Source: Apibacter raozihei (lineage in GTDB: Bacteria; Bacteroidota; Bacteroidia; Flavobacteriales; Weeksellaceae). Taken from it: a stretch of 64,000 bases of DNA. This document shows positions 2,089 through 16,819 of this stretch, one piece after another; the first letter of the stretch is position 1; each line of letters starts with the position of its first letter. The notes under the pieces are model-generated. The model was not told the DNA's origin, searched no databases, and saw nothing but the letters and a program-made list of their open reading frames with translations. The stretch spans positions 2,025,716 through 2,089,715 of the forward strand of contig NZ_CP034930.1 of NCBI RefSeq assembly GCF_004014855.1. The letters are read 5' to 3'. The position numbers were made by a program, and so were the translations under genes.

Positions 2089-3435
2089 ATGCGTACCTTA
2101 ATAAGTAGCTATTTTCAGCTAAAAGAGAACAATACTACCATAAAAAAAGAACTGACGGCTGGTTTAATAACCTTTCTTACCATGTCGTATATTCTCATAG
2201 TAAATCCCAGTATATTATCGGAAACAGGGATGGATAAAGAAGCCTTATTTACAACTACAGCAATAGCAACTATTTTTGCTACCTTGCTAATGGGTATATT
2301 TGCCAAACTTCCGATTGCACAAGGACCAGGTATGGGGTTGAACAGTTTTTTTGCCTTTTCCGTGGTTTTAGGTTTGGGATATTCCTGGCAGTTTGCCCTT
2401 ACAGCGGTATTTATAGAAGGAATTATATTTATTCTTTTAACATTTTTTAATATCAGGGAGTTAATTGTTAAGAGCATACCGAAAGTTTTGAAAGAAGCCA
2501 TACCTGCCGGTATTGGGTTGTTCATTACTCTAATTGGTTTAAAAGGAGCAGGAATTATTGTATCTAATCCAAATACCTTAGTAAGTTTGGGAGATTTTTC
2601 CCAGCATTCAGTATGGATGGCATTTACCGGATTATTAATAACGGCTGTTTTGTTTGCAAGAAACATCAACGGAGCCATATTAGTGGGAATCGTAGTAGCA
2701 AGTCTATTCGGTTTTATTCTGGGTGATGTTGCTTTGCCTGAAACTTCTCTAATCAGTTTACCACCGTCAATCGAACCTATTTTTGGTAAAGCCATAGAGC
2801 CTATGATGACTGCCCAGGGATGGAAACAGATTTTTTCAATTGATATGTTGTTAGTGGTTTTTACTTTTTTGTTTGTCAATTTATTCGACACGGTAGGTAC
2901 CTTAATCGGAGTAGTATCTAAAATAGGATTAACCGATGAAGAAGGAAACTTTCCGCAAATGAAAAAAGCATTGTTTTCCGATGCATTAGGAACCACTGTG
3001 GGAGCCATTTTAGGAACCAGTACCATAACTTCTTATGTAGAAAGTGCTTCCGGAGTTGCTTCCGGTGGAAGAACAGGATTGACAGCCGTAGGAACTGCAT
3101 TAATGTTTATTTTAGCTTTATTTCTGGCTCCTTTGTTTTTAATGGTTCCCGCAGCTGCTACAGCACCCGCATTGATTATTGTAGGGCTGTTTATGATATC
3201 TTCGGTAGTTAAAATAAACTTTACGGATATTACCGAAGGATTACCTGCATTTTTAACTATAGCCTTTATGCCTTTTACATACAGCATAGCAGAAGGTATC
3301 GTATACGGAATGCTTAGTTATATGTTACTCAAAGTATTTACAGGAAAATACAAAGAAGTAACTCCGACTGTTTATGTAGTTTCTATTTTATTTTTTGTGA
3401 AAATAGTAATGGATGCTTCACATATATTGGGATGA
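2089..3435 (+). CDS. NCS2-family nucleobase permease (AzgA/AdeP-like purine permease)
   Basis: 448 aa polytopic membrane protein. The N-terminus resembles AzgA-type adenine/guanine/hypoxanthine permeases. Confidence 0.75.
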   Translation: MRTLISSYFQLKENNTTIKKELTAGLITFLTMSYILIVNPSILSETGMDKEALFTTTAIATIFATLLMGIFAKLPIAQGPGMGLNSFFAFSVVLGLGYSWQFALTAVFIEGIIFILLTFFNIRELIVKSIPKVLKEAIPAGIGLFITLIGLKGAGIIVSNPNTLVSLGDFSQHSVWMAFTGLLITAVLFARNINGAILVGIVVASLFGFILGDVALPETSLISLPPSIEPIFGKAIEPMMTAQGWKQIFSIDMLLVVFTFLFVNLFDTVGTLIGVVSKIGLTDEEGNFPQMKKALFSDALGTTVGAILGTSTITSYVESASGVASGGRTGLTAVGTALMFILALFLAPLFLMVPAAATAPALIIVGLFMISSVVKINFTDITEGLPAFLTIAFMPFTYSIAEGIVYGMLSYMLLKVFTGKYKEVTPTVYVVSILFFVKIVMDASHILG

Positions 3436-3503
3436 AAAATAATTAGTGTATATGTAAGGGACTAATCATATTCCGTCATACCAATTACCACCGTGCCAAT
3501 TTC

Positions 3504-3737
3504 GTTGGGAATGGTCTATATTTGAAGGCTAATCACAACAGAAAAACCTTGAATTTGTTTTAATTCAGAGTTGGGAATGGTCTATATTTGAAGGCTAATC
3601 ACAACTGTATGTTTGTAGTCATAATAGGATACATTGTTGGGAATGGTCTATATTTGAAGGCTAATCACAACCAAAACTAGAAACTCCATAATGCCTTAGT
3701 CGTTGGGAATGGTCTATATTTGAAGGCTACTCACAAC
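3504..3737 (+). CRISPR. Type VI-B CRISPR array: 4 repeats of 36 bp (GTTGGGAATGGTCTATATTTGAAGGCTAATCACAAC), 3 spacers of 30 bp
   Basis: Repeats at 3504-3539, 3570-3605, 3636-3671 and 3702-3737. The last repeat is degenerate (CTAATC to CTACTC). The repeat begins GTTG and ends CAAC, is 36 nt with 30-nt spacers, and shares about 25/36 positions including the 3' TAATCACAAC with the B. zoohelcum Cas13b repeat as I recall it. It lies directly upstream of the cas13b-like gene. Confidence 0.92.
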
Positions 3738-3819
3738 TACCTATTTCTATATATTTTGCTCTTTTTAAATTGGTTTTTATAATAGATATACCAGAAAATA
3801 GAATCTCAAAAAAGTCTAT

Positions 3820-3860
3820 ACAGGGGAATAAAAATGTAATTTTACCCCTGTTTTCTTATT
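3820..3860 (+). terminator. Stem-loop ACAGGGG(N18)CCCCTGT followed by a T-run, between the array and cas13b
   Basis: A GC-rich 7-bp stem seen in the sequence, followed by TTTTCTTATT. It may terminate the pre-crRNA transcript. Confidence 0.4.
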
Positions 3861-3942
3861 CAATGCTGAAATTTTTTATAATCTCTAATCTGTTTTACGA
3901 TAAAATATTTTATCTTAGCTCATCGCTTGAAAATCTGTTTTT

Positions 3943-6900
3943 ATGAAAACTTTAGGGGCTTTATCTTCACATAATTACAATAATAAAAAGTATTATTTTT
4001 CCGGATTACTAAATACGGCACAGTATAATTTTAATTTAGCCTTGCAGGAGGTCAATGACCGGTTAGGGAAAAAGGGAAAAAATCCGGGGAAAACTATGAT
4101 TAAAAATATTTTTGATCAGAAAGATTCTTTTTCAACCCAAGAACGTGCAATGTATTATTTGGAAGAATTTTTTCCCTGGATTTTTTTAGTAATGAAACAA
4201 TCAGGTATAAACATACCTACGGAAGAGCAGGAAACGAAATTGCATAAAGAGGAAATTCAGCTAATACAGGAACATCTTATTTCTTTATATGAATTGCTCG
4301 ATGATTTACGCAATGAACAAACCCATTATATGCACGATCCGGTTATTATTCCGGAAGAAGTTTCGAAAATGCTGGATGCTCTTTTATTGCAGATTCTTAA
4401 AAATACCCGAAAAAAGTGTAAGGACGACGAATACCGTACATTTATAGTTAAAAAGTATCAGGAAGAATTTCAGAAAGAGATTAAAGTGCAGGTAAAAGAT
4501 AGATTTGGTAAAGAAAAAGAAAAGATAGTAACCGGAGAGGTAAAAGAAAACTATGTAATTAACCGATGTTTCAGGAAATGGATTCAAAAAGAAGGAGAAG
4601 AAGAAACACTCAGGTATTCTACCGTACAGGAAGAACAAGGAAAGTATGTTTGGTCTTCCTCAGGATTTGTTTTCTTTTTATCCTTGTTTCTACGGCGTAA
4701 AGAGCTGGAAGATGTAATGAACCATGTACCGTATTTTAAAGACAGTCGAAAGTTACTGTTTTACCTAACAAGAAAAACCTTTTCTTCTTATTGTTTCCGG
4801 GATCTAAGAAAATCCCTAAGGAGCGATTATTCCAATGACTCCCTGCTTATGCAGATGATTGAGGAATTATATAAATGTCCCGGAGAATTATACGAAGTAT
4901 TGCTTAAAGAACAAAAGCAGGAATTTATTGAAGATATAAATGAATATTATAAAGATAATCCGGAGTTTGAAGGCTCTGCAAATGAGGCGCAGGTAATTCA
5001 TCCCGTAATACGGAAACGGTACCAGGATAAGTTTCCCTATTTCGCGCTTAGGTTTATAGATGAGTATTTTAATTTTCCTACACTTCGTTTTCAGCTGGTG
5101 CTGGGGGAATATGTCACAGACCGTAGAACAAAAGAATTACAGGGGACTGCTTTGTTTACAGATAGGGTAATTTCTCAAAGAATTAGTTATGTCGGAAAAC
5201 TGTCTGAAGCGGAAATGAACAAGAAGAGAGAAGGATATACAGAAACCGGATGGAAAGAATATCCCAATCCTTATTATAAGATTGAAAATAATCGGATACC
5301 TCTTTATATTGAGTTTTCAAAAAATGAAGAACTCATTTTTAAAGAAAAGAAATTTAAATATAACACTCTTGCTAAATGGGAAAATAGAGAGATAGATAAG
5401 AGGACAGGAGAATTTAATCAGGTAAACAAGCAAAGAAGAATAACTCAGTTGGAGGAATTTAAAATCGATAATCCTAAGAAAATGAAAACACCGAATGTTT
5501 TCCTGAGTATATACGAACTACCGGCTCTTTTACACGCATTGCTTATTGAGAAGAAAACAGAAGCAGAAATAGAAGACATTATTAAGGCAAAAATAAAAAA
5601 GCAACTGACGGAAATTGCCGAAGGAAGACGGAATTTGTCAGGATTACCTAAAGGGATAAAAAAAATGCGTAATTGTAATTCCGATTTTGAAAAAAAGAAA
5701 TTAATTAGTGATATAGATAACGAAATAAAAAAAGGAGAAAAAATACTAGAAGAAGTACAGCAGTGGCTCAACCCGGTTATTAATAAAAAAGGAACAGGTA
5801 AACAGGAAAATAACAAACCTTTTTTCTCTAATACGTATAGGGGGAAATACGCCACCTGGCTGGCATACGATATCAAACGGTTTACAGGAAAAGATCATAT
5901 ACAAAACTGGAAAGGCTATCAGTTTAGCGAATTACAAACCCTATTATCTTTATATACGTTGCGTAAAGAAGAGCTGAAAAACTTTTTAGAAAAAGACCTT
6001 CAGCTTACATCCCATCCTTTTTTAAAAGAAGCGTTAAAGGCAGTTAATCTGGAAGATTTTATGGGTGCTTATTTGCGTGGCAGGCAGTTTTTTTTAGAAA
6101 AAGCAAAAAAACAAATAGGCATAAAAGGAGTAAAGAAAAGTATTTTTCAGTATTTTGAAGAACGTAAATACAAGATTTATTCTTCTAATTTGGACTATTG
6201 GGAAGAATTGTGGAAACATCCGGTAAATCTGGATAGAGGACTTTTTGATGAGCGGGGTACAGTTTACAATAAAAACAAAGAATTAAATGATCTTCAAAAC
6301 CGGGCAGCTTGGTTTTCTTTTGCAGAAACAAACCCTAAACAGCAGTTTTATCATTTCCCAAGAATATATTCAGATGAGGATATAACAAAACCGGTCACCG
6401 ATAGATATGGGAAAACAAAAGAAAAACTAATACTATTTAAATTATCTCCACAAAAAGGTTTTATGGAGCAGATTCCTTCGGATTTGAAAAAGAAGTATCA
6501 GGAAGATAAAGGAAAGGTAGAGCATCCGGAAGTGCAAAAGGAAAAAAAGTACGAAGAAAAAAAACATCCCGGCATTAATGCTTTTATAAAAAATGCATAT
6601 AAAAACGAACAGAAAATACGCAGGATTTCCCGGAATGATATTTTTCTTTATGAAATGGTAAAATACATGTTAAATAAAATTTCTCCTGCTACAGAATTTT
6701 CTTCTTTGGATAAGGTATGGCTAACCCGGATAGAAAGAGAAAAACAAGCTACAGAAGCCCGTGAACAATCTTTTAAGGAAAAGGGAGATACTTCAGAAAA
6801 TAAAATAAGACAAGATTACCTCTTGTCTTTTCCCATTACTCTCACTCTTTTTAACGATATAATTAAAGAAAAGGTTAAAATAAAAGATATAGGACGTTTC

Positions 6901-7425
6901 CGTAAGCTGGAAAAAGATGAAAGGGTACAGACGATGATTAGCTATTATACTTCCGGTTTGTGGAAGAATGACCAACCCAGCCTAACTATAAAAGAATTGG
7001 AAGCTGAGCTTGAAAGTTATCATAAAATCAGGCTTCAGGAAATATTCAAAGAAGTACATAAGCTGGAAAAAGAAATTTATGAATTTACACCCGAAGAGGA
7101 TAAAAGTAAGTTATTAGCCCGAGAGAGTTTTCCTAAATTTAAATATTATATTTCTTTTTATTTTATACCTAAAGAAGATCAGGAGGTTTTTAACGAAATT
7201 CAATTCGATAAGTATAAAAATTTGGAACAGATACCAGGAAGAAAGCCGGAATACGATCCGTATTATTTGTTAATCTTTATTCGCAATAAATTTGCCCATA
7301 ATCAGCTTCCGGCAGAGCCAATATATAAAACAGCTCTTACTTTTTTGCCTAATAATTTTAATACTTTAGCAGAATATTATCACAAATTATTTATTCTTCT
7401 GAATAATAAAAATTATAACAACTAA
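3943..7425 (+). CDS. cas13b: Cas13b (C2c6), type VI-B RNA-guided RNase
   Basis: 1160 aa. HEPN motif 1 is RNEQTH near aa 120 and HEPN motif 2 is RNKFAHNQ near aa 1120, both R-X4-H, placed as in known Cas13b. The N-terminus (YFSGLLNTAQ..) resembles the Bergeyella Cas13b N-terminus. The gene is adjacent to a VI-B-type array. Confidence 0.9.
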   Translation: MKTLGALSSHNYNNKKYYFSGLLNTAQYNFNLALQEVNDRLGKKGKNPGKTMIKNIFDQKDSFSTQERAMYYLEEFFPWIFLVMKQSGINIPTEEQETKLHKEEIQLIQEHLISLYELLDDLRNEQTHYMHDPVIIPEEVSKMLDALLLQILKNTRKKCKDDEYRTFIVKKYQEEFQKEIKVQVKDRFGKEKEKIVTGEVKENYVINRCFRKWIQKEGEEETLRYSTVQEEQGKYVWSSSGFVFFLSLFLRRKELEDVMNHVPYFKDSRKLLFYLTRKTFSSYCFRDLRKSLRSDYSNDSLLMQMIEELYKCPGELYEVLLKEQKQEFIEDINEYYKDNPEFEGSANEAQVIHPVIRKRYQDKFPYFALRFIDEYFNFPTLRFQLVLGEYVTDRRTKELQGTALFTDRVISQRISYVGKLSEAEMNKKREGYTETGWKEYPNPYYKIENNRIPLYIEFSKNEELIFKEKKFKYNTLAKWENREIDKRTGEFNQVNKQRRITQLEEFKIDNPKKMKTPNVFLSIYELPALLHALLIEKKTEAEIEDIIKAKIKKQLTEIAEGRRNLSGLPKGIKKMRNCNSDFEKKKLISDIDNEIKKGEKILEEVQQWLNPVINKKGTGKQENNKPFFSNTYRGKYATWLAYDIKRFTGKDHIQNWKGYQFSELQTLLSLYTLRKEELKNFLEKDLQLTSHPFLKEALKAVNLEDFMGAYLRGRQFFLEKAKKQIGIKGVKKSIFQYFEERKYKIYSSNLDYWEELWKHPVNLDRGLFDERGTVYNKNKELNDLQNRAAWFSFAETNPKQQFYHFPRIYSDEDITKPVTDRYGKTKEKLILFKLSPQKGFMEQIPSDLKKKYQEDKGKVEHPEVQKEKKYEEKKHPGINAFIKNAYKNEQKIRRISRNDIFLYEMVKYMLNKISPATEFSSLDKVWLTRIEREKQATEAREQSFKEKGDTSENKIRQDYLLSFPITLTLFNDIIKEKVKIKDIGRFRKLEKDERVQTMISYYTSGLWKNDQPSLTIKELEAELESYHKIRLQEIFKEVHKLEKEIYEFTPEEDKSKLLARESFPKFKYYISFYFIPKEDQEVFNEIQFDKYKNLEQIPGRKPEYDPYYLLIFIRNKFAHNQLPAEPIYKTALTFLPNNFNTLAEYYHKLFILLNNKNYNN

Positions 7426-7617
7426 TTGTATATTAAATTTTAGTAATTTAACAGGTGGCTTTATAAATTAAAAATGGTTGTATGTATAAATGATTAAAAA
7501 TTAAATAATAATCGTTTATCATCGTCTCTAAATTCCTCAAAATAAAGAATTAATTAACACAAGAGTTGTAATAAATTTGTAAAAATCATAGTATTTGATA
7601 AATTAATTCAGATTTTA

Positions 7618-7648
7618 TTGTTTAATTTCACATAAAATACTATATTTG
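7618..7648 (+). promoter_or_regulatory. Candidate Bacteroidetes sigma-A promoter (TTG at -33, TATATTTG at -7) placing the TSS at the a1 repeat of the ncRNA
   Basis: TATATTTG at 7641-7648 matches the TAnnTTTG -7 consensus, and a TTG sits about 20 bp upstream. The predicted start is near 7654, exactly where the a1 inverted repeat begins. Confidence 0.4.
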
Positions 7649-7653
7649 TTCAG

Positions 7654-7873
7654 GGTTAAAAAATACCTTGCTTTTCTGAATAAGAAAAAGATGATGTATC
7701 GTCATCGGTGAGCTATTGCTAGACATTCGGCACTACCTGCAATCTTTATGGGGAGAGTAACTACTATACGTATGGTTACGGTTCTCCTCTCCACGAGTTT
7801 AACCATACGTATAGTAGTTACTCTCTGGAGTTGATTGATATAGTCCTTAGAAAATACGAAGGTTTTTTAACCT
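7654..7873 (+). ncRNA. Retron-like msr/msd non-coding RNA: a1 (GGTTAAAAAATACCTT) and a2 (AAGGTTTTTTAACC) inverted repeats flanking small msr hairpins and a perfect 26-bp msd stem-loop (7753-7825)
   Basis: a1 at 7654-7669 and a2 at 7859-7872 are reverse complements apart from a 2-nt bulge. The arm GAGAGTAACTACTATACGTATGGTTA pairs perfectly with 7800-7825 across a 21-nt loop. A small hairpin GATGA(N7)TCATC sits at 7691-7707. The layout directly upstream of an RT gene is the canonical retron arrangement. Confidence 0.6.
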
Positions 7874-7874
7874 G

Positions 7875-7918
7875 AAAGCCCTATTTTATTGATAAATAAA
7901 ACAGGGCTTTTATTTTTA
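7875..7918 (+). terminator. Hairpin AAAGCCCTATTTTA..TAAAACAGGGCTTT plus T-run between a2 and the RT start codon (possible attenuator)
   Basis: A 14-bp stem with one mismatch, followed by TTTTATTTTTAT, about 25 bp before the ATG at 7944. Confidence 0.4.
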
Positions 7919-7943
7919 TGATCATTAATTATAGAAAAGGCTT

Positions 7944-9464
7944 ATGTCTGAAAAACTAACGAAACAGCAAATTTACGACCGAATCAGAGCTACATCCAAA
8001 GATAGTTATATTTTAGAGGAAATGCAGCGATTAGGATTTTGGGAAAAAGCAGATAGTCCTCAAATTCCGGAAATCTTCATTGAAAATGAAACCAGATTAC
8101 TTCAGGAGCTCAACCAATTACTGGATAAAAATAAACAATACAGTGATCAGCTGAGCATGCTTAAGTCCATGCGAAAGGTCCGCATGAAAAATGCAAAAGA
8201 AAAAAGAGAAGTTACCCGGCAGAATAATAAATTAAAAGCGTTGGAAAAGGCCGAACGATGGCTGAAACTTCAACAGGAACAGGTTCTCTTTTTAGGAAAA
8301 GAAGTATCTAAAGGCTTAAATAATACAGAGCCGAATGTTAATTCCTTAAAAAAATTTAATTTACCCGTATTTCATTCAGTAGTTGAATTTGCTGGATATA
8401 TGGAAACTGATTTACCGTCATTACGATATTTATTATATCAGCGAAAGGTTTCTACCATAAACCACTATCATACATTTGAATTACCTAAAAAATCGGGAGG
8501 AAAAAGAAAAATTTCAGCTCCTAAATCAAGGATTAAAGCACTTCAGCTTCAGGTGCTTGATAAAATTTTAAAAAATATTCCTGTAAATGATTACGTACAT
8601 GGATTTATTCAGGGAAAATCCATAGTATCAAATGCTCAACCGCATGTAAATAAAGATATTGTAATCAACATGGATCTAAAAGATTTTTTTCCATCAATAG
8701 AATACAAAAGAGTTAAAGGACTATTTTATAAACTGGGATATTCTGAACAAATTTCAACAATGTTGGCACTGGTATGTACGCAATCAGATACCTATGAGGT
8801 GAACATGGACGGAGTTACTTATCATGTTCAGAAAGGAGCCCGATTTCTGCCTCAGGGTTCACCTGCAAGTCCTGCAATCAGTAATTTGATAGCCTACAAG
8901 CTTGATAAACGAATTAAAGGATTAGCAGAGCGACTGAATTTTACTTACACCCGTTATGCAGATGATTTAAGTTTTTCTACAACCAATGAAAATCAAAAAA
9001 ATATCCGTCAATTACTATTTTTTGTAAATCAAATAGTTGTAGAAGAAGGGTTTAAGGTTCATCCGGAAAAAACTCATATCATGAGAAAAGGGAATTTACA
9101 AATGGTTACCGGAATAGTGGTCAATCGAAAATTAAATATAGAGAGAAAAAAATTAAGAAATTTCAGAGCCTTATTACACAACTTAAATTTAAATGGATGG
9201 AAAGATCAGAAGTGGGGAAATGCTGTCCATCTTATTCATGCAGTGGAAGGATATATTCGTTTTGTTAAAATGGTTAATCCGGAAAAAGGTAAAGAATTTG
9301 CAGAAAAATTAGCAACCATAATAAAGAAACAGGGATATCCGGAAATATCGTGTCAAAAATATAACTCAAATGATACTACGGAAAAAACAACAGCTTCTAT
9401 AACAAAACCAGAGACTAATCAAAAAGAAGAAAATGACAGCCAGGACTGGTGGGATATTTTTTAA
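7944..9464 (+). CDS. Reverse transcriptase, retron/Abi-like, with a roughly 130-aa N-terminal coiled-coil-like extension
   Basis: RT motifs are visible in the translation: ELPKKSGGKRKISAP (motifs 1/2), MDLKDFFPSI (motif A), LPQGSPASPAISNL (motif B'), YTRYADDLSF (YADD motif C) and VTGIVVNRKLN (the retron-type VTG region). There is no maturase, endonuclease or Cas1 domain. Confidence 0.85.
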   Translation: MSEKLTKQQIYDRIRATSKDSYILEEMQRLGFWEKADSPQIPEIFIENETRLLQELNQLLDKNKQYSDQLSMLKSMRKVRMKNAKEKREVTRQNNKLKALEKAERWLKLQQEQVLFLGKEVSKGLNNTEPNVNSLKKFNLPVFHSVVEFAGYMETDLPSLRYLLYQRKVSTINHYHTFELPKKSGGKRKISAPKSRIKALQLQVLDKILKNIPVNDYVHGFIQGKSIVSNAQPHVNKDIVINMDLKDFFPSIEYKRVKGLFYKLGYSEQISTMLALVCTQSDTYEVNMDGVTYHVQKGARFLPQGSPASPAISNLIAYKLDKRIKGLAERLNFTYTRYADDLSFSTTNENQKNIRQLLFFVNQIVVEEGFKVHPEKTHIMRKGNLQMVTGIVVNRKLNIERKKLRNFRALLHNLNLNGWKDQKWGNAVHLIHAVEGYIRFVKMVNPEKGKEFAEKLATIIKKQGYPEISCQKYNSNDTTEKTTASITKPETNQKEENDSQDWWDIF

Positions 9465-9481
9465 TTATAAATAGTAGATAA

Positions 9482-12400
9482 ATGAAACTAGTTAAGATAA
9501 GTAAATTATATTTCAATGAAGGAAATTCTAATAAAGTTTATGAAATTGAACTGTTAGAATTAACCGCATCAGAATGCCTGGTGAATTTTCGGTATGGAAA
9601 AAGAGGAAGCAGACTCAAAGAAGGAACTAAAACGCCGGAAGTTGTTTCTCACAATGAGGCGGAAAAAATATTTCTTGCAGTAGAAAAAGAAAAATTAAAT
9701 AAGGGGTACCTTCCGGAAAAAGAACATAAAACAGAGCTATCTATTTCTGAAAGAGTATTTCCGGATTCAAAAGAAGGAATTATACTGCATAGGTTACAAG
9801 ATGCTGTTAACGGAACTCAGAGTTTCAATACACCATGGAAAACCAGTCGGGTGATATGGAAAGCAGGCTGTTATAATATAAAGCAGGCAATACCTTTTAT
9901 CATTAAGCTTGTTTTTAAAGGAGATGAGATGCAGACCTATGCTTCATTATGGGCATTAAATAAATTAAAATCAGTAGAAGCCAAAGAGTTATTCTATCAA
10001 TATTCTTTTTCGAATAAAAAGGAATATATCAGAAATATAGCCATCGAAGGGTTTTTAACTATCGCAGGTGAAAATGAACTCTTGGAGATGGAGGAAAAAC
10101 TATTACAGAGAGTTTCGGCAGAAATAAAATATTACTGGCAGATTAAAGATTATGAAGCTCTTTATCAGGAGCTTTTAAAGGATTATGAAAAAGATAAATT
10201 AACTTATATAACAGTCCTTTATCAACTTAATAAGATAAGGCCGGTATTAACCGATTATTTTTTGAAATTTTTTACAATCTGCAAGTTTCAGCCTCCCTGT
10301 TTTAAACAAATCCGTTCTGTATATAAACTGGCACAGGCTAGGAATGATTATCCGGTAGTAGCAGTATTATCATATCGGATAGAAAAAGAGCAAGGCAGTT
10401 TTAACGCATCTTACAATGATGGCTTTGATTCAGTCAAAACAGAATATCTGCCTAGTATAGACGAGGGGGAAGAAGAAATTGCAAAACAGGCATTTTCAAA
10501 ACAAACCCAAGCTTATTTTCGGAAAAATGCTCTGTATTTTCTCAAAAATACAGCCAAAGATGGAAAGAACGAATACTTAAAATTAGCAGTAAATCTTTTG
10601 TTGCAGTATAAAGAATCGGATTATTCTCCAGAACAAGAAATACCGGTATCTAATTATGGTACTTATGATTATGATAAAGAAATTTATCGTTATACTTTGA
10701 TTGATTATCCGGAGTGTTCAGAATCCGTTTTATTATTTACCATTTTATTTGGTCATTCGCCTCAGGTGTATTTAAATAATCATTCAAGGTTTATAAAAGG
10801 TAAAAGAGAAGTATATAGTCGCAGTTATTATTTTACATCCCAGATTTCAGAACATGAGGAAGATTTTTTAGAAAATACAATGGAAAGTTCAGAAGAAGAA
10901 GAAGAGGAGTTTGTTCTGCAGGAAAGTTTAAACAATGATTCTGACAAAGGAATAGTTGGAACAATCAAAAACTTTTTTAAAAATATATTAGGAGGTGAAA
11001 AAGAATTAAGACCAGAAAATAATTTACTTTCGGAACATGATGACGAACCGGAAGATAGGGATGAGAATATTACAGAATCCTTTGAAGTTGAGCCTGTAGA
11101 AAATATAAGTGATGATGAATTTGAAGAACCGGTTTTATCAGCTGTATGGGTAAGAAATGAACTTTATCCGGAATACTGGGATCAGTATCCTCAGGCTTAC
11201 ATACAATTATTATTCAAAGCAAAGATGACTCTTATCCATCAATTTGCCTTAAATAATTTGTCAGCTCATCCGCAGTATCATGATCTCTTACAGCGATTAA
11301 GTAAAGATGACATATTAGATTTATTAAACAGTGATTTCTATATACCTAATAATTTTGGACAAAGAATTATTGAAAATAAAGAAAATGATTTTAAAGAAGA
11401 CAGAGAATTTATTGCTAAAGTTTTAAATTCTAAATCAGCCATTTCAAGGAGCTGGGCATATGAAAATGTACAGTCCAACACAAAATACTATTTCGAATCG
11501 ATTGAGTTTACATTACTGGTATTGTTTAATTCAGTAAAAGATTTTAAAGAAGAGATCAACATTCTGCTTCATAGTACATCATTTGAGACAGAACGAAAAA
11601 AAGCACTGATAGGTAAGACTATTGCCGAATTACTCATTTTGTCAGATAGTAAAGAAAATAATGATATTGCTGAAGAAGTAATATCCAGGCTTAATTGTTT
11701 AGCTTCCACTGAATACGATTGTATTAACTGGCAGATTTTAGAGCAGTTGTTTTCATCAACGTTGAAAGCTAACCATATATTAGCCAGTTCAATCATCATG
11801 AAAAAATATGAAAATAAATCAATAATTGATTTACCATTATCTTTAATTGATTCATTTCTCAAGTATGAAAATAAAGACATAAGATCTAATGGCCTCTTAT
11901 TATTGAAAAAATATTCGGATACTTATCTCGTTAATAATATTAATTTTATTTTAAGTCACACGGAGTCTCAATATGAAGAAGTAGTAAAAGAAATGGTATC
12001 TCGTTTGGTTCAACTGATACGTTATAGCAAAACAACCGCTAATACAGCCTTGCGTTATTTAGTTTATGTACTTATGAGAAAGGAGAAGTTTTCCGGAGCA
12101 CATGCATATATTAACTCATTTGTTACTAATGAGTTAAAATCTAATTGGAACGAAGGATTAGCTCCAAATGATATTACTAAACTTATTCATTCGCAATATC
12201 GTAAAAGTCAAATAACTGGATATGAAATTCTTTTAAATTATAAAAAGTCAGATGATTTTACACTGAAACAGATTATTTCATTCGGAAATCATGAAATTCT
12301 AGCTTTAAGACAATGGTGTTGGAATTATTATAAAGAAAATATAAGCCGTATAAAAACCGAAAAAACAAAAGCGCTTAATTTGCTTAATTCCAGATGGGAG

Positions 12401-12910
12401 GATACCCGAAATTATGCTTTTGAGTTTTTCAGATCTGAATTCAATGAATCTGACTGGGACATGGATACTCTTTTGAGTATTATAGATTCAATTCGCCCGG
12501 ATGTTGAAAATTTTGGAAAAGAGTTAATAAAGATATATTCCGGGTCCAATTGGGATATAAAGTTTTTAACCCGTTTAAGTGAGCATCCGAGTGTACAGGT
12601 GCAGGCGTTTATAACTGGTTATTTAAATCAATACGTAGCCGGCAGGCCGGAAATAATCGGTCAGCTAACTAATTATTTTCAGACAACGCTTTCACAGGTA
12701 AATAAAGCAAGAGTTGCTAAAAACAGAATATTTAAATTTTTGCATCAGGAATCAATAAAAGATTATGAAACAGCTAAAATAGTCACTCCGCTCTTAGATT
12801 TTTTATCTGCTCAGTCAACCATACAGGATAGAGCCACATGCATCGATATTTTGACAAATATTAAAAGCTTGTATCCTCACATAGAAATGAATCTGGAAGT
12901 TAAAAATTAG
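9482..12910 (+). CDS. WGR-domain protein with a long alpha-helical repeat region (MolR-like, probably DUF4132) and an acidic low-complexity linker
   Basis: The N-terminal 80 aa (KVYEIELLE..FRYGKRGSRLKEGTK..EAEKIFLAVEKEKLNKGY) fits the WGR-domain pattern. About 1000 aa of helical repeats follow. A poly-E/D segment lies at about aa 465-545. The start is 18 bp after the RT stop. Confidence 0.6.
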   Translation: MKLVKISKLYFNEGNSNKVYEIELLELTASECLVNFRYGKRGSRLKEGTKTPEVVSHNEAEKIFLAVEKEKLNKGYLPEKEHKTELSISERVFPDSKEGIILHRLQDAVNGTQSFNTPWKTSRVIWKAGCYNIKQAIPFIIKLVFKGDEMQTYASLWALNKLKSVEAKELFYQYSFSNKKEYIRNIAIEGFLTIAGENELLEMEEKLLQRVSAEIKYYWQIKDYEALYQELLKDYEKDKLTYITVLYQLNKIRPVLTDYFLKFFTICKFQPPCFKQIRSVYKLAQARNDYPVVAVLSYRIEKEQGSFNASYNDGFDSVKTEYLPSIDEGEEEIAKQAFSKQTQAYFRKNALYFLKNTAKDGKNEYLKLAVNLLLQYKESDYSPEQEIPVSNYGTYDYDKEIYRYTLIDYPECSESVLLFTILFGHSPQVYLNNHSRFIKGKREVYSRSYYFTSQISEHEEDFLENTMESSEEEEEEFVLQESLNNDSDKGIVGTIKNFFKNILGGEKELRPENNLLSEHDDEPEDRDENITESFEVEPVENISDDEFEEPVLSAVWVRNELYPEYWDQYPQAYIQLLFKAKMTLIHQFALNNLSAHPQYHDLLQRLSKDDILDLLNSDFYIPNNFGQRIIENKENDFKEDREFIAKVLNSKSAISRSWAYENVQSNTKYYFESIEFTLLVLFNSVKDFKEEINILLHSTSFETERKKALIGKTIAELLILSDSKENNDIAEEVISRLNCLASTEYDCINWQILEQLFSSTLKANHILASSIIMKKYENKSIIDLPLSLIDSFLKYENKDIRSNGLLLLKKYSDTYLVNNINFILSHTESQYEEVVKEMVSRLVQLIRYSKTTANTALRYLVYVLMRKEKFSGAHAYINSFVTNELKSNWNEGLAPNDITKLIHSQYRKSQITGYEILLNYKKSDDFTLKQIISFGNHEILALRQWCWNYYKENISRIKTEKTKALNLLNSRWEDTRNYAFEFFRSEFNESDWDMDTLLSIIDSIRPDVENFGKELIKIYSGSNWDIKFLTRLSEHPSVQVQAFITGYLNQYVAGRPEIIGQLTNYFQTTLSQVNKARVAKNRIFKFLHQESIKDYETAKIVTPLLDFLSAQSTIQDRATCIDILTNIKSLYPHIEMNLEVKN

Positions 12911-12915
12911 AAATT

Positions 12916-14577
12916 ATGATAGTAGATTATAAATATACAGACAATACATACATAGATAACTCTTCTGCCGGAACAAAAATGAGCTTTGCTCCGGATTTAC
13001 TTCGTGAACCTACTTTTTTTACAGGTAAATTAAATAAAAAAGTAGCTTTTAGAGAAGCTATTTCTGCATTGCATGACGTAGTGGTTTCAGATTTACGATT
13101 CAAGCCTAAAGACAAAACAGAATATAAAGCCTGGGTAGCGGAGCAGGAAAAGATTTGGTTAGGGGAATATATGGCTGAGTTTGAAATTGAAGAAGTTCGG
13201 TTTCGTATAAATGAAATTAAAAAAGAACTTTCAGAATTATACGAAGAAAAAAATAAAGTCTTGGCTCCTTTCAATCAGGCTAAACAGAAGTACTTTGATT
13301 ATTTGTATCAAAATGATCCCGATGCATGGTATGTTTTAGATCCCGTTATAACCGTACATCCCGATGAAGTTTTTTTTGAATGTTTCAGTCAGGATGAATC
13401 TTCCTATGGAAAATTAAGCTGTAATTATAATGTTTTTAATGAAATAAACGAATTTAAATGCGGTACAACGAATATTGATTATTCCGCAGAATTATATGGT
13501 GAATTTCAAAAAATAAGAGGATATAAAGATACACAGTTTAGTATAGATTCTTCCGGTTTTGAAATGAAAACGACTTATGAAGAGGTTTACAAGGAAATTA
13601 AAATAGATTTGCCCGATTCCTGGGTGAGAGGTTTTTTGCAGGTAAGCACAGCCATGACATTACCTTCAGCCGTTTTCAATTTGCATCCTATGGATATTTA
13701 TAGCATTTGCCAGTATCTGAGAAGGTTCAAAGAAAAAGAAGGTCCGAGAGCTTTACGTTTTTTATTAGAACCTGATAAGCCTGTTAGATTGGTAATAGAA
13801 CCCTGGGGTAAAATTTTGACATTTTACAGATCGGTTTACCATGGGGACAGTAAAAAAGATATACGTGTATGGGGCCGAAGACGGTTATTTATTTTAGAAC
13901 GATTGATACCTATAGCTAAGAGTTTTAAGGTTTTTTTACTGGGGTCGGGAATGCCTTCGTTTTATGTGGCGGATTTAGGGGATATGTCTTTTACGTTAGG
14001 ACTTTCAGGCTGGACGGCTAATGATTGGAGCAGGTTAGGAAATTTCGATTTAATGGCTCCAAGAAACGAAGTGGATATACTGACAAAAAAAAGAGTTTTC
14101 AATAGACTTAAAGAAAGTTGGTTTGACACATCTCAGCACTTAGCTGAAAAACTAAATTTACATTCTTCCGTAGTTCAATCAGTATTGACTTCTTATACAC
14201 AAACGGGAAATGTAATTTATGATTTAAACTCGGGCGTGTACAGAATTCGTGAATTATCCAACAAGCCACTAGATATAGAGGATTTACGCTTTACCTCGGA
14301 GCAGGAAAAATTAGCTGAAGAATTGGTGAATGAAGGAAGAGTTAAAAATCTAAAATTTAAAATACAAGACAAAAAATTATTTTTAACCGCAGAAGTATAT
14401 GATAAAAACTCAGTATTTCATACCTCAGCTGTAATAGATAATGATCAGCGATTAATTGATGCTCAATGTGATTGTGATCATTTTAAAAGGAATCGTCTAA
14501 GAAAAGGACCCTGTGAGCACATATTGGCAATTCGTTTACAATATCAAAAAAATAAAATTTACGCTAATAAAATGTAA
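12916..14577 (+). CDS. SWIM zinc-finger domain protein (YehQ-like)
   Basis: The C-terminus has CDCDHFKRNRLRKGPCEHILA, a C-x-C-x(n)-C-x-H SWIM signature. The start is 6 bp after the WGR-protein stop, consistent with an operon with the RT. Confidence 0.6.
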   Translation: MIVDYKYTDNTYIDNSSAGTKMSFAPDLLREPTFFTGKLNKKVAFREAISALHDVVVSDLRFKPKDKTEYKAWVAEQEKIWLGEYMAEFEIEEVRFRINEIKKELSELYEEKNKVLAPFNQAKQKYFDYLYQNDPDAWYVLDPVITVHPDEVFFECFSQDESSYGKLSCNYNVFNEINEFKCGTTNIDYSAELYGEFQKIRGYKDTQFSIDSSGFEMKTTYEEVYKEIKIDLPDSWVRGFLQVSTAMTLPSAVFNLHPMDIYSICQYLRRFKEKEGPRALRFLLEPDKPVRLVIEPWGKILTFYRSVYHGDSKKDIRVWGRRRLFILERLIPIAKSFKVFLLGSGMPSFYVADLGDMSFTLGLSGWTANDWSRLGNFDLMAPRNEVDILTKKRVFNRLKESWFDTSQHLAEKLNLHSSVVQSVLTSYTQTGNVIYDLNSGVYRIRELSNKPLDIEDLRFTSEQEKLAEELVNEGRVKNLKFKIQDKKLFLTAEVYDKNSVFHTSAVIDNDQRLIDAQCDCDHFKRNRLRKGPCEHILAIRLQYQKNKIYANKM

Positions 14578-14931
14578 ATATTAAGTAAATATAAAATGTG
14601 ATTTTTATACAATGAATTTAATATTTTATCGTTCAATTTTTTAACTGAATTAATTTTAGTAAAATTAATGTGTATTAATAAAATAAAGGGACAAGTCTGA
14701 TAATTTAAAAAAAAAATATTAGATGAATAAAGGATTTAATTCAGATTCATTTATTATGTAATAAAATAAAAATTATGCTAAAATTATTATATTTGATAAA
14801 TAAAGAGCGAAAAATAAATATTTTAAAAAAAGTTAAATTTGTTAGTAGATAATATTTTTGTTAATTGGTTCAATATTTGACAATAAACTTTAAAATTTGT
14901 AGTTTATTATTAAGAAAATGCTAAAAATCGA

Positions 14932-15492
14932 ATGAAAAAATTTTTTTTAACCCTCTCAAGTATTTTTATCATAAGCTTTTTGCCGGCACAGGTGAGAGGT
15001 TATGGACAAAAATACAAAAAACCAAAAATTTCAAATTCCACGAATAATTCAAATAAAAAGGATAATATAAATGATCCCTTCGCTGCTGAAGATTGGGCAG
15101 ATGCTAAAAAATTTGCTGATAAAGTGGCAGGTGCTTCAGGAAAATATGTATTCCTTCAAAAAAAAGAATCGTCTACTCCAGGAGTCATAGTTTTAAGGTA
15201 TATTCCGACAAGTATCAGCAATAAAGATTTCTATATAAATAAACCTTGTGCTGAATGTATGGACATAGAATTCAAAAAGAATAATTCTTCTAAATATAAT
15301 TATGCATTTAGCCATGTCTGGGGAAACTTTGCAGACTTATTCCCTGTTTGGAAATCTATATTTAGTCCTAATGCTCAAATGTCTGATTATTCAGTGAGCG
15401 ATCAAAACGTATTGGTTCAATGGCGAACGTCTTACGGTCAAAATCAGGTAACTTTTGGAAGGCTGGGTACCGCCTGGTTTATTAAAATATAA
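14932..15492 (+). CDS. Hypothetical secreted protein (signal peptide)
   Basis: An N-terminal hydrophobic signal peptide; no recognisable domain. Confidence 0.45.
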   Translation: MKKFFLTLSSIFIISFLPAQVRGYGQKYKKPKISNSTNNSNKKDNINDPFAAEDWADAKKFADKVAGASGKYVFLQKKESSTPGVIVLRYIPTSISNKDFYINKPCAECMDIEFKKNNSSKYNYAFSHVWGNFADLFPVWKSIFSPNAQMSDYSVSDQNVLVQWRTSYGQNQVTFGRLGTAWFIKI

Positions 15493-15520
15493 CGTTAGAT
15501 ATAATAGTTAAAATTATAAA

Positions 15521-15565
15521 AATACCCGATTGAAAATTTATACATAAATTTTCAATCGGGTATTT
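15521..15565. terminator. Bidirectional terminator: perfect palindrome ACCCGATTGAAAATTTA..TAAATTTTCAATCGGGT
   Basis: A 17-bp perfect inverted repeat between convergent genes (the 14932 ORF and proA), flanked by T-runs. Confidence 0.65.
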
Positions 15566-16819
15566 TTATATTCGTATCTGACCATTGCCTTCAATGATCC
15601 ATTTATAAGTGCACAGTTCATCTAAGGCCATAGGGCCACGGGCATGCATTTTTTGAGTACTGATACCGATTTCAGCTCCCAGACCGAATTGGGCTCCGTC
15701 TGTGAAAGCAGTAGAGGTGTTTGAATATATGCAGGCAGCATCAATCAGTCTTTCAAATTTATGTATTATTACTACATTTTCACTAATTATGGCTTCACTA
15801 TGTTTGGAACTGTAAGAAGATATGTGTTGAATAGCCTCGTCAAAACAAGTAACGGTCTTAATTGCCATTTTATAATCCAAAAATTCCGTCCCATAACTTT
15901 CCGCATTTGCTTCTTTTAATAAATCAGCTGGATAGCTATCATATAAAGCCTTGTGAGAAAGCTTATCCGCATAAATAATGACATTCTTTTCCTGAAGTTT
16001 TTTACATAATGTAGGTAAATCTTTAATTCGTTCTTCATCTATGACCAAACAATCCAATGAATTGCAAACACTAACTTTTCGTGTTTTGGCATTGAAAATT
16101 ATATTTTCACCTTTTTCAATATCTCCATCTTTATGAAAATAGGTATGGCACACACCTGCGCCGGTTTCAATAATTGGAATTTTTGAATTTTCTCGAACGA
16201 AATTTATGAGTTCTTTACCTCCTCTGGGAATAATCAGATCCACATAGTTTCTGGCATTCATTAATTCCTGAGTAGCATAGCGTTCATTAGGTAGCAGCGT
16301 ACATATATCAGAATTATAACCTTCATCTGCAATGACTCTTCGTATTATATTTACGATAGCTGTATTAGAATTTATGGCATCGGAACCTCCTTTTAATATG
16401 CAGGCATTTCCAGATTTAAGGCATAAAGAGAAAACATCAAAGGATACGTTGGGCCTGGCTTCATAAATGATTCCGATTACTCCGAAAGGAACTGAAATTT
16501 TTGAAATTGTTAAGCCGTTAGCCAACTTTTTTCCCATAAGTTTTTTATTAGAAGGAGTTGGTAGTGAGACTACGTTTTCAATATCTTTAATGATATTAAA
16601 AATTCGTTCTTCAGTAAGTAAAAGCCGGTCATATTTTGGATTAGAACGAGACATTCTATCCAAATCTTTTTGATTTTCAATTAGTAAATAAGAAATATTT
16701 TTTTTGGTTTCCTCAATGAGTTTGTTAAGGATGCCATTAATCTGAGTATCACTCAGGAGATTTACCTGCCTGCTTGCCAGCAATGAATCTTCGAACAGGT
16801 TATTTAGTCTGGAAATCAT
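15566..16819 (-). CDS. proA: Glutamate-5-semialdehyde dehydrogenase (gamma-glutamyl phosphate reductase)
   Basis: 417 aa and ALDH-like. The stop overlaps proB by 4 bp. The sequence family is typical ProA. Confidence 0.85.

What the first reader, a model, noticed from the sequence alone, without database searches (positions are those of the whole stretch)
9482..12910. WGR-domain giant protein with a poly-acidic linker, MolR-like
The N-terminal 80 aa fits the WGR fold, the PARP-type nucleic-acid break sensor. An E/D-rich stretch of about 80 aa (SSEEEEEEF..EHDDEPEDRDENITESFEVEPVENISDDEFEEP) splits the helical repeat region. From memory, E. coli MolR (WGR+DUF4132) sits next to the yehLMPQ cluster, whose last gene encodes the SWIM protein YehQ. 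If so, this WGR-SWIM pairing is an ancient conserved module, here attached to an RT.
Basis: partly seen in the sequence, partly recalled or inferred. Interest (0 to 1): 0.6.

Follow-up and report, generated by a model that had tools for sequence, protein, structure and literature searches.

The report
Retron type XIII WGR scaffold protein
The giant WGR-domain protein is the known helical-repeat accessory subunit of a complete type XIII retron (non-coding RNA, reverse transcriptase, WGR giant, SWIM protein) in an Apibacter genome, so the gene is ordinary for its family, although how this family works has not been tested.

Summary
The ORF is real: 9482-12910, 1142 aa. Its N-terminus is a WGR domain that passes Pfam's cut-off. 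A roughly 100-aa disordered linker (36% Asp/Glu, net charge -29) splits two alpha-helical solenoids.

It is not a MolR (WGR+DUF4132) protein. No DUF4132 was found in this protein or in any of its 120 homologues. Profile comparison with E. coli MolR/YehI aligns only the WGR domain.

It is the WGR/HEAT-ARM accessory protein of a type XIII retron (PADLOC WGR_XIII, E 8.6e-287; cluster 216_1 of Mestre et al. 2020). On one side lie an RT_XIII reverse transcriptase and a covariation-supported msr-msd RNA. On the other lies the SWIM_XIII protein, which carries an invariant acidic D-E-D-E motif.

RT, giant and SWIM gene occur together in 77-78 of 80 related loci. Cas13b, which sits next to the retron here, occurs in none of them.

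The strong acidity of the linker is specific to Apibacter. A short helix inside the linker is conserved across Bacteroidota.

Homologues of this SWIM protein (not of YehQ) sit next to a large helical protein, with or without WGR and with or without an RT, in several phyla.

No experiment on the function of this family was found.

The parts
7650..7877 (+). Retron non-coding RNA (msr-msd). It is closed by the a1/a2 duplex and carries the invariant CCTTGC at 7666-7671. G7670, just 3' of a1, is the candidate branching guanosine.
   Evidence: MFE z-score is -9.05. On 25 loci, 44 consensus pairs were predicted and 30 show compensatory changes. 94.6% of cells are paired, against 33-49% when the partners are slid, and 0 of 500 shuffles reach the observed score. 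No Rfam family matches. The branching G is inferred from position only.
7653..7669 (+). a1 arm (GGGTTAAAAAATACCTT), which pairs with a2.
   Evidence: The duplex is -15.4 kcal/mol (z -5.2) in the window. a1/a2 complementarity is kept with different sequences in 76% of 59 loci (z below -2).
7859..7873 (+). a2 arm (AAGGTTTTTTAACCT).
7752..7826 (+). Long hairpin with a perfect 26-bp stem (7753-7778 / 7800-7825). It is the predicted template for the msDNA stem-loop.
   Evidence: In helix 6 of the consensus structure, 15 of 16 pairs show double compensatory changes.
7875..7919 (+). Terminator-like GC hairpin followed by a T run, between the ncRNA and the RT start codon.
   Evidence: Read from the sequence and folded. 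An equivalent GCCCT...AGGGC hairpin follows a2 in the Flavobacteriia and Sphingobacteriia loci. Its function is inferred.
7944..9464 (+). Retron reverse transcriptase, clade 10 / RT_XIII (506 aa). It contains YADD, NAxxH (SNAQPH) and VTG.
   Evidence: PADLOC RT_XIII E 4.4e-178; Pfam RVT_1 E 2.8e-25. The motifs were read from the translation.
9482..12910 (+). WGR / helical-repeat accessory protein of the type XIII retron (1142 aa). This is the finding.
   Evidence: PADLOC WGR_XIII E 8.6e-287 over the full length. It is 99% identical to the 'WGR domain-containing protein' of Apibacter sp. HY039. AlphaFold mean pLDDT 86.9.
9482..9730 (+). WGR domain (aa 1-83), the most conserved part of the protein.
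   Evidence: Mean major-residue frequency is 0.72.
9770..10387 (+). N-terminal HEAT-like helical repeats (aa 97-302).
   Evidence: HEAT_2 matches in 23 of 28 members. The family profile matches alphaRep/HEAT chains in the PDB. Helices are seen in the model.
10388..10846 (+). Mixed alpha/beta insert domain (aa 303-455) of unknown fold family.
   Evidence: DSSP on the model. No family hit.
10847..11146 (+). Disordered acidic linker (aa 456-555, net charge -29).
10952..10987 (+). Short conserved amphipathic helix inside the linker (aa 491-502, IKNFFKNILGG).
   Evidence: The motif (..KNIFGKK / ..LFNWLGGEK) is kept in nearly all the Bacteroidota homologues sampled although the rest of the linker varies. 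It is predicted helical but at low confidence.
11147..12871 (+). C-terminal all-alpha solenoid (aa 556-1130). The last 200 aa are the second most conserved region.
   Evidence: Foldseek finds CAND1, karyopherins and the PP2A A subunit, E about 1e-6; conservation 0.64 for aa 931-1130.
12916..14577 (+). SWIM_XIII protein (553 aa), the predicted effector. The acidic motif is D142, D150, E155, D188, E227 (nt 13339-13596). The C-terminal SWIM finger CxC...CxH is aa 507-539 (nt 14434-14532).
   Evidence: PADLOC SWIM_XIII E 2.5e-232; Pfam SWIM E 7.7e-5. The residues are invariant in 43 close homologues, and D142, E155, D188 and E227 are also invariant in 13 distant homologues. It is 100% identical to an Apibacter raozihei protein.

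Best explanation
The ORF encodes the WGR/HEAT-repeat accessory subunit of a complete type XIII retron, the clade that includes Mx162 and Mx65.

The unit consists of:
- an msr-msd non-coding RNA (about 7650-7877)
- the reverse transcriptase (7944-9464)
- the WGR giant (9482-12910)
- a SWIM-finger protein with an invariant acidic D-E-D-E motif (12916-14577)

Proposed mechanism, by analogy with characterised retrons:
1. The RT copies the msd part of the RNA from the 2'-OH of the guanosine next to the a1/a2 duplex. This yields a branched RNA-DNA molecule (msDNA) with a hairpin stem of about 26 bp.
2. The WGR domain of the giant holds a DNA end or junction of that msDNA, as the WGR domains of PARP enzymes hold DNA ends.
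3. The two helical solenoids dock the RT and the SWIM protein.
4. The assembled complex keeps the SWIM protein, a predicted metal-dependent nuclease, inactive until phage infection alters the msDNA or the complex.

The disordered linker joins the two solenoid arms and carries a conserved short helix, probably a docking motif. Its extreme acidity in Apibacter may mimic nucleic acid and add self-inhibition.

Shown here: gene identities, the conserved three-gene-plus-RNA synteny, the RNA structure, the domain plan and the conserved residues. Inferred: msDNA synthesis, WGR-msDNA binding, nuclease activity, the roles of the linker and the defence function.
For: Identity:
- PADLOC gives WGR_XIII 8.6e-287, RT_XIII 4.4e-178 and SWIM_XIII 2.5e-232.
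- Mestre et al. [quoted passage not shown]

Synteny:
- Of 80 genomic loci holding a homologue of the giant, 77 hold the RT and 78 the SWIM gene. The exceptions are explained by loci that end within or just beyond the giant or SWIM gene.
- Two gene orders occur, and no fourth gene is conserved beyond genus level.

RNA:
- A conserved element of about 215 nt lies directly upstream of the RT in both gene orders. It has a1/a2 arms and a long variable-sequence hairpin.
- 30 of 44 pairs are compensatory. The covariation score is 0.547, against at most 0.125 for slid controls.

Protein:
- The model is confident, and the WGR domain and the last 200 aa are the most conserved regions.
- Mestre et al. report co-evolution of the RT with cluster 216.
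- The acidic motif of the SWIM protein is invariant even in distant homologues.
Against: - No experiment on any type XIII retron accessory protein was found in the searchable literature. Every mechanistic step is therefore inference.
- Nuclease activity of the SWIM protein is only a motif-based prediction. Its AlphaFold model is poor in exactly that region (mean pLDDT 56.5; residues 134-249 below 50).
- WGR similarity to the solved PARP domains is marginal at sequence level (E 0.02-0.06).
- Type XIII shows signs of vertical inheritance. Mestre et al. report this, and flanking genes in the related loci are conserved only within genera. That fits a housekeeping role as well as defence.
- The acidity of the linker is not conserved, so any role for it cannot be general.
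Confidence: 0.8

Rival explanations
1. The protein belongs to the MolR family (WGR + DUF4132) and works in a yeh-type MoxR-VWA-SWIM system.
For: [quoted passage not shown] The E. coli cluster does contain a WGR gene, a DUF4132 gene and a SWIM gene. In five Flavobacterium loci a DUF5724-DUF4132-DUF7737 giant lies near the retron.
Against: No DUF4132 was found in the protein or in any homologue. hhalign against MolR/YehI aligns only the WGR domain. YehQ matches only at the zinc finger, which sits at the opposite end of the protein. No MoxR, VWA, DUF5682 or YehQ homologue occurs in the window or in the 80 retron loci, and no RT_XIII or SWIM_XIII homologue occurs in 80 yeh loci.
Confidence: 0.03
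2. The retron, and hence the WGR giant, is functionally coupled to the adjacent type VI-B CRISPR-Cas13b locus, for example as an accessory module or a spacer-acquisition RT.
For: The array (3504-3737), cas13b (3943-7425) and the retron are contiguous on the same strand, between housekeeping genes. Type VI-B loci lack cas1/cas2 (background knowledge).
Against: Cas13b is absent from all 80 related retron loci, each with up to 10 kb of flank on either side where the contig allowed. The RT is a retron RT with its own ncRNA, not a Cas1-associated RT. A terminator-like hairpin and 500 nt separate the two units.
Confidence: 0.03
3. The type XIII unit is not an anti-phage system. It is a vertically inherited cellular module, for example a domesticated transposase-like nuclease working in DNA repair or rearrangement, in which the WGR giant targets DNA lesions.
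For: Mestre et al. report a moderate correlation with 16S and suggest domestication. Flanking genes of the 80 loci are conserved within genera. WGR/DUF4132 genes are DNA-damage-induced in Deinococcus, and MolR is reported to be in the LexA regulon. No defence phenotype is published for this type.
Against: All experimentally characterised retron types act in phage defence (background knowledge). In this window the retron sits beside a CRISPR-Cas13b locus in a 12-kb island between a permease gene and proBA. PADLOC lists it among defence systems.
Confidence: 0.14

Closest known systems
Type XIII retron accessory protein (cluster 216_1 of Mestre et al. 2020; PADLOC WGR_XIII), from the retron clade that includes Mx162, Mx65, Sa163 and Ne144
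   Same: Full-length profile match. The same neighbours (RT_XIII, SWIM_XIII). The same kind of ncRNA next to the RT. The same WGR + HEAT/ARM architecture.
   Different: In Apibacter the linker is expanded to about 100 aa and is strongly acidic. The locus lies next to a Cas13b system. No member of the family has been studied experimentally as far as could be found.
E. coli MolR (YehF/YehH) and YehI, with the yehLMPQ cluster
   Same: An N-terminal WGR domain on a helical protein of about 1200 aa. A SWIM-finger protein is encoded in the same cluster.
   Different: They have DUF4132, which is absent here. Partner genes are MoxR, DUF5682 and VWA, with no RT and no ncRNA. The SWIM fingers of YehQ are N-terminal and the rest of YehQ is unrelated. 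Nothing aligns outside the WGR domain.
RT-less pairs of a SWIM_XIII homologue with a DUF6493-DUF7824-DUF7825 giant (with or without an N-terminal WGR)
   Same: The SWIM partner is a true homologue (hhalign probability 98.9%, E 2.7e-17) and keeps D142, E155, D188, E227 and the C-terminal finger. It is always adjacent to a helical protein of 840-1040 aa. In two Flavobacterium loci that giant also starts with a WGR domain.
   Different: No RT and no ncRNA. The solenoid of the giant is not detectably homologous to WGR_XIII (hhalign probability 2%). Among the aligned proteins, the retron-linked SWIM proteins carry an extra helical insertion of about 75-85 aa (window aa 62-135). The giants have no PADLOC family.
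WGR domain of PARP1/2/3
   Same: The same Pfam family. The predicted fold is a beta-sheet plus a helix. The conserved motif FRYG(K/R)RG corresponds to the W-G-R motif.
   Different: No PARP catalytic domain and no zinc fingers. The tryptophan is replaced by tyrosine. DNA-end binding has not been tested.

Membership tests
Type XIII retron (Mestre et al. 2020) | Reverse transcriptase of retron clade 10 (RT_XIII) with the retron motifs | tested here: met
   PADLOC RT_XIII scores 591 bits, against 313 bits for the next model. YADD, NAxxH and VTG are present.
Type XIII retron (Mestre et al. 2020) | A contiguous msr-msd ncRNA with a1/a2 inverted repeats and an msd stem-loop | tested here: met
   Structure and covariation on 25 loci, and a1/a2 duplexes in 59 loci. 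The type XIII consensus published by Mestre et al. was not compared directly.
Type XIII retron (Mestre et al. 2020) | An adjacent cluster 114_1 protein with the DEDE motif and a C-terminal SWIM finger CxCx12CxH | tested here: met
   SWIM_XIII E 2.5e-232. The motif reads D142-x7-D150-x4-E155-x32-D188-x38-E227. The finger is C518, C520, C533, H535.
Type XIII retron (Mestre et al. 2020) | An adjacent cluster 216_1 protein with a WGR-like domain and HEAT/ARM repeats | tested here: met
   WGR_XIII E 8.6e-287, Pfam WGR, and a helical solenoid in the model.
Type XIII retron (Mestre et al. 2020) | Production of msDNA | not testable with these tools
   This needs expression followed by nucleic-acid analysis.
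MolR family (WGR + DUF4132) | An N-terminal WGR domain | tested here: met
   Pfam PF05406 at 28 bits, above the 22-bit cut-off.
MolR family (WGR + DUF4132) | A C-terminal DUF4132 domain (PF13569) | tested here: not met
   No hit at E up to 1 in 28 members and none in the precomputed domains of 120 homologues. hhalign of the two families aligns only the WGR domain.
MolR family (WGR + DUF4132) | The yeh-type neighbourhood (MoxR ATPase, DUF5682, VWA, YehQ-type SWIM protein) | tested here: not met
   tblastn with YehL, YehM, YehP and YehQ finds nothing in the window or in the 80 retron loci.
PARP-type WGR DNA-end sensor | Sequence and fold membership of the WGR domain | tested here: met
   Pfam match in 28 of 28 members. 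The family profile finds the PARP2 and PARP3 WGR domains and 2ra8 weakly. The predicted fold has four strands and a helix.
PARP-type WGR DNA-end sensor | Binding to DNA breaks or ends | not testable with these tools
   This needs EMSA or a structure with msDNA.
Type VI-B CRISPR accessory protein | Recurrent co-occurrence with cas13b | tested here: not met
   Cas13b is found in 0 of 80 related loci.

The most novel reading that the evidence does not exclude
The effector half of type XIII retrons is a large helical solenoid protein, optionally carrying an N-terminal WGR domain, plus a D-E-D-E/SWIM protein. This pair may be an autonomous two-gene system that is widespread without any reverse transcriptase.

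RT-less examples seen here:
- SWIM homologue + DUF6493-type giant in Alpha- and Betaproteobacteria, Bacteroidota and probably Actinomycetota.
- SWIM homologue preceded by an unannotated protein of about 840 aa on two metagenome contigs.

On this reading, type XIII retrons arose when an RT-ncRNA cassette captured such a pair, and a helical insertion of about 80 aa in the SWIM protein was the adaptation. The RT-less pair has no PADLOC family for its giant, and no paper in the searchable library mentions its domains.
Probability: 0.45. Interest if true: 0.55.

Novelty: new member of a known kind. Interest (0 to 1): 0.33.

Why it matters
For the finding itself, very little is new. The gene is an already classified component of a catalogued retron type.

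It still has some value. Type XIII contains the first retrons ever discovered (Mx162, Mx65), yet the searchable literature holds no experimental mechanism for it. This locus gives a compact, complete example with clear testable parts:
- a structure-supported ncRNA
- a confidently modelled WGR-solenoid scaffold
- a conserved docking-like helix in a disordered linker
- a SWIM protein with an invariant acidic motif

The side observation may help separate what the RT/msDNA contributes from what the effector pair does alone. Homologues of the SWIM protein are always paired with a large helical protein, with or without an RT and with or without WGR.

Tried and rejected
- Rfam scan of 3300-15600 gave only chance microRNA-like hits on the hairpins, so no curated family covers this ncRNA.
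- Literature searches for WGR/SWIM/DUF4132/MoxR, for Mx162 + HEAT + SWIM, and for DUF6493 and its relatives gave nothing useful. The exceptions were Mestre et al. 2020, a 2026 survey preprint and a Deinococcus paper.
- The afdb50 fold library was not available. Foldseek against the PDB with the whole giant returned only generic HEAT solenoids.
- A single-sequence search of the WGR domain against the PDB found nothing relevant. The profile search was only marginal.
- The AlphaFold model of the SWIM protein was poor (pLDDT 56.5). The resemblance of its residues 250-360 to a PCNA/beta-clamp domain is weak and was not relied on.
- The metagenome scan with Cas13b found no relatives. The second metagenome scan, with the MolR/YehI alignment, returned only 80 loci 53-62% identical to the enterobacterial query, mostly from gut metagenomes. 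MolR-YehQ adjacency 'across phyla' could therefore not be tested.
- The three CRISPR spacers have no convincing match in 50,697 phage records.
- The plasmid search with the WGR-DUF6493 giant gave only three hits, none informative.
- Considered and rejected: MolR membership, a Cas13b accessory role, and a conserved fourth gene in the retron unit.
Full report
**What is at the coordinates**

Window 9482-12910 (+) is a single ATG-initiated ORF of 1142 aa. Residues 13-81 match Pfam WGR at 28 bits, above the 22-bit curated cut-off. All 28 sampled relatives match WGR too. A profile of the N-terminal 92 residues finds three solved WGR structures only weakly: B. fragilis 2ra8 at E 0.0043, PARP2 at 0.02 and PARP3 at 0.064.

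Residues 456-553 are 36% Asp/Glu, and residues 456-555 have net charge -29.

An AlphaFold model built on 103 homologues is confident (mean pLDDT 86.9, pTM 0.69). It gives this plan:
- WGR domain of four strands and a helix, residues 1-83
- HEAT-like helices, 97-302
- a mixed alpha/beta insert, 303-455
- a disordered stretch, about 456-555, containing one short helix (491-502)
- an all-helical solenoid, 563-1130

Foldseek against the PDB returns only generic HEAT solenoids such as CAND1, karyopherins and the PP2A A subunit.

**What it is**

PADLOC models give full-length matches for three consecutive genes:
- RT_XIII for 7944-9464 (E 4.4e-178)
- WGR_XIII for the finding (E 8.6e-287)
- SWIM_XIII for 12916-14577 (E 2.5e-232)

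These are the three protein components of type XIII retrons as defined by Mestre et al. 2020 (PMC7736814). That definition is a clade-10 RT (the clade of Mx162, Mx65, Sa163 and Ne144), a cluster 114_1 protein with a DEDE motif, a winged helix and a C-terminal SWIM finger, and a cluster 216_1 protein. [quoted passage not shown]

The giant is 99% identical to a "WGR domain-containing protein" of Apibacter sp. HY039. The SWIM protein is 100% identical to one of Apibacter raozihei. The window therefore comes from that species or a very close relative.

**The RNA component**

The 520-nt gap between cas13b and the RT holds a strongly structured element (MFE z -9.05). Its parts are:
- an a1 arm (7653-7669) that pairs with an a2 arm (7859-7873)
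- an invariant CCTTGC directly after a1, whose G7670 is the positional candidate for the branching guanosine
- two small hairpins
- a conserved clamp
- a hairpin with a perfect 26-bp stem (7753-7778 / 7800-7825)

The same element lies directly upstream of the RT in related loci of both gene orders. On 25 loci, 30 of 44 consensus pairs show compensatory double changes. 94.6% of cells are paired, against 33-49% when the partners are slid. The covariation score is 0.547, against at most 0.125 for the slid controls, and no shuffle of 500 reaches the observed value. The a1/a2 arms stay complementary with different sequences in 76% of 59 loci.

No Rfam family matches. The retron is therefore complete.

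**Conservation of the unit**

Eighty genomic loci with a homologue of the giant were fetched with up to 10 kb of flank on each side where the contig allowed. They come from Pedobacter, Flavobacterium, Chryseobacterium, Chitinophaga, Niastella and others. Of these, 77 hold the RT and 78 the SWIM gene; the exceptions are explained by loci that end within or just beyond the giant or SWIM gene.

Two gene orders exist: ncRNA-RT-giant-SWIM and giant-SWIM-ncRNA-RT. No further gene is conserved beyond genus level.

Identity to the window proteins runs SWIM (55-72%) > RT (44-63%) > giant (27-46%). Within the giant, the WGR domain and the last 200 residues are the most conserved regions, and the linker is the least.

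**The linker**

A linker is present in all the Bacteroidota homologues sampled, usually 60-75 aa (39 aa in one) and 6-21% Asp/Glu. It is only 17-18 aa in the five shortest-linker homologues, of which those named by their source are cyanobacterial. The 100-aa, strongly acidic version is therefore specific to Apibacter, and it is identical in the two Apibacter sequences.

What nearly all the Bacteroidota members share is a short amphipathic motif in its middle (IKNFFKNILGG here; ..KNIFGKK or ..LFNWLGGEK elsewhere). It looks like a docking motif within a flexible tether. That reading is an inference.

**Test of the MolR/YehQ idea**

K-12 has yehF (WGR), the yehH pseudogene, yehI (DUF4132), yehK, yehL (MoxR), yehM (DUF5682), yehP (VWA) and yehQ (SWIM). 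Intact "WGR and DUF4132" proteins exist in other enterobacteria.

Homology stops at the WGR domain:
- No DUF4132 was found in this protein, in the 28 members scanned at E up to 1, or in the precomputed domains of 120 homologues.
- BLASTP against YehI gives E = 14.
- hhalign of the two family alignments aligns 65 WGR columns and nothing else.
- YehQ shares only the zinc finger with the SWIM protein (39 aa by BLASTP; hhalign probability 0.6%). The finger is N-terminal in YehQ and C-terminal here.
- No YehL, YehM, YehP or YehQ homologue occurs in the window or in the 80 retron loci. No RT_XIII or SWIM_XIII homologue occurs in 80 yeh loci.

MolR-YehQ adjacency across phyla could not be surveyed. 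The only scan left returned loci 53-62% identical to the enterobacterial query, mostly from gut metagenomes.

**What survives of the "module" idea**

This was found while checking the above. In two Flavobacterium loci (L019, L078) a second gene pair lies right next to the retron. It consists of a 1030-aa WGR-DUF6493-DUF7824-DUF7825 protein and a 442-aa protein. The 442-aa protein is a homologue of the window's SWIM protein over residues 142-541 (BLASTP 3e-16; hhalign probability 98.9%, E 2.7e-17). In L019 the same strand also carries a DUF5724-DUF4132-DUF7737 giant. Related DUF4132 giants lie near the retron in four more Flavobacterium loci.

On plasmids of Diaphorobacter, Asticcacaulis and Chondrinema, a SWIM_XIII homologue is directly followed by a DUF6493-type giant, with neither an RT nor a WGR domain. 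Nonomuraea has a similar pair with weaker domain matches.

Seven further representatives of the SWIM family were looked up on metagenome contigs, and six contigs were informative:
- In all six, the SWIM homologue is directly preceded by a protein of 595-912 aa with no Pfam hit.
- Two of these are followed by an RT.
- Two, with 6 kb of flank, have no RT.
- Two contigs are too short to tell.

Across 13 retron-linked and RT-less SWIM proteins, D142, E155, D188, E227 and the four finger ligands are invariant. Among these aligned proteins, the retron-linked ones carry an extra helical insertion of about 75-85 aa.

The solenoids of WGR_XIII and of the DUF6493 giants are not detectably homologous (hhalign probability 2%). 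The DUF6493 giants have no PADLOC family, and no paper in the library mentions these domains.

The recurrent unit is therefore a large helical protein plus this SWIM family. WGR and the RT are each optional additions.

**The Cas13b neighbour**

Upstream lie a four-repeat CRISPR array (3504-3737; 36-nt repeats, 30-nt spacers) and a Cas13b gene (3943-7425; NCBIfam E 8.5e-235). Together with the retron and a small secreted-protein ORF, they form an island of about 12 kb between a permease gene and proBA.

Cas13b is absent from all 80 related retron loci. The adjacency is best read as co-location of two defence systems.

**Mechanism**

No experimental work on type XIII accessory proteins was found. 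The mechanism offered is by analogy with characterised retrons and with PARP WGR domains:
- the RT makes msDNA
- the WGR domain of the giant holds a DNA end or junction
- the two solenoid arms hold the RT and the SWIM protein
- the predicted nuclease stays silent until infection disturbs the complex

The main alternative is a vertically inherited cellular role. It is suggested by the 16S correlation reported by Mestre et al. and by the genus-level synteny seen here.

**Verdict**

The protein is an ordinary member of an already classified family, not a MolR homologue, and its link to an RT is the family's defining feature. Interest is modest. The most useful by-product is the RT-less giant-plus-SWIM pairing.

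Noticed in passing
window 3504-7425: A type VI-B CRISPR-Cas13b locus lies upstream. It has four 36-nt repeats (GTTGGGAATGGTCTATATTTGAAGGCTAATCACAAC; the last repeat has one mismatch), three 30-nt spacers, and a 1160-aa Cas13b with N- and C-terminal R-N-x3-H motifs. No csx27- or csx28-like ORF is evident beside it. The spacers have no convincing match among 50,697 phage records.
   Followed up: partly
window 7875-7919, and the equivalent positions in L002-L032: A GC-rich hairpin followed by a T run sits between the retron ncRNA and the RT start codon. It is conserved in the loci of Flavobacteriia and Sphingobacteriia (RT-giant-SWIM order) but not in those of Chitinophaga type. It may set the ratio of ncRNA to RT by attenuation.
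   Followed up: no
L019 6349-13697 (minus strand); L078 15262-19688: An RT-less second pair lies next to the retron in two Flavobacterium genomes: a WGR-DUF6493-DUF7824-DUF7825 giant and a 442-aa homologue of the retron SWIM protein. In L019 the pair is preceded by a DUF5724-DUF4132-DUF7737 giant.
   Followed up: partly
L164, L165, L166, L167 (plasmids); L169, L176 (metagenome contigs): Homologues of the SWIM protein are directly adjacent to a helical giant of 840-1040 aa, with no RT, in Beta- and Alphaproteobacteria, Bacteroidota, probably Actinomycetota, and two unassigned contigs. The giant is of DUF6493 type or has no annotation. The giants have no PADLOC family, and no paper in the searchable library names these domains.
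   Followed up: partly
window 12916-14577 (SWIM protein aa 62-135): Among the 13 SWIM proteins aligned, the retron-linked ones carry an extra helical insertion of about 75-85 aa that the RT-less homologues lack. It may be the adaptation that couples the protein to the RT or msDNA.
   Followed up: no
window 13660-13995 (SWIM protein aa ~250-360): The best-modelled central domain of the SWIM protein resembles a single PCNA/beta-clamp domain in Foldseek (rmsd about 3 A over about 125 columns, E about 1e-3). The overall model is poor (pLDDT 56.5), so this is only a hint.
   Followed up: no
L168 4065-10314 (Clostridium butyricum megaplasmid): A type XIII retron in Bacillota with the order giant (978 aa, matching only the middle of the WGR_XIII model) - SWIM (602 aa) - RT. 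The coding regions overlap, so its ncRNA must lie elsewhere.
   Followed up: no
window 14932-15492: A 186-aa ORF with a signal-peptide-like N-terminus has no family hit. It lies between the retron and proA and has no homologue in the related retron loci.
   Followed up: partly
L036, L039, L042, L043, L073: In some Cytophagia loci, extra ORFs of 250-480 aa are inserted between the giant and the SWIM gene. They were not identified.
   Followed up: no
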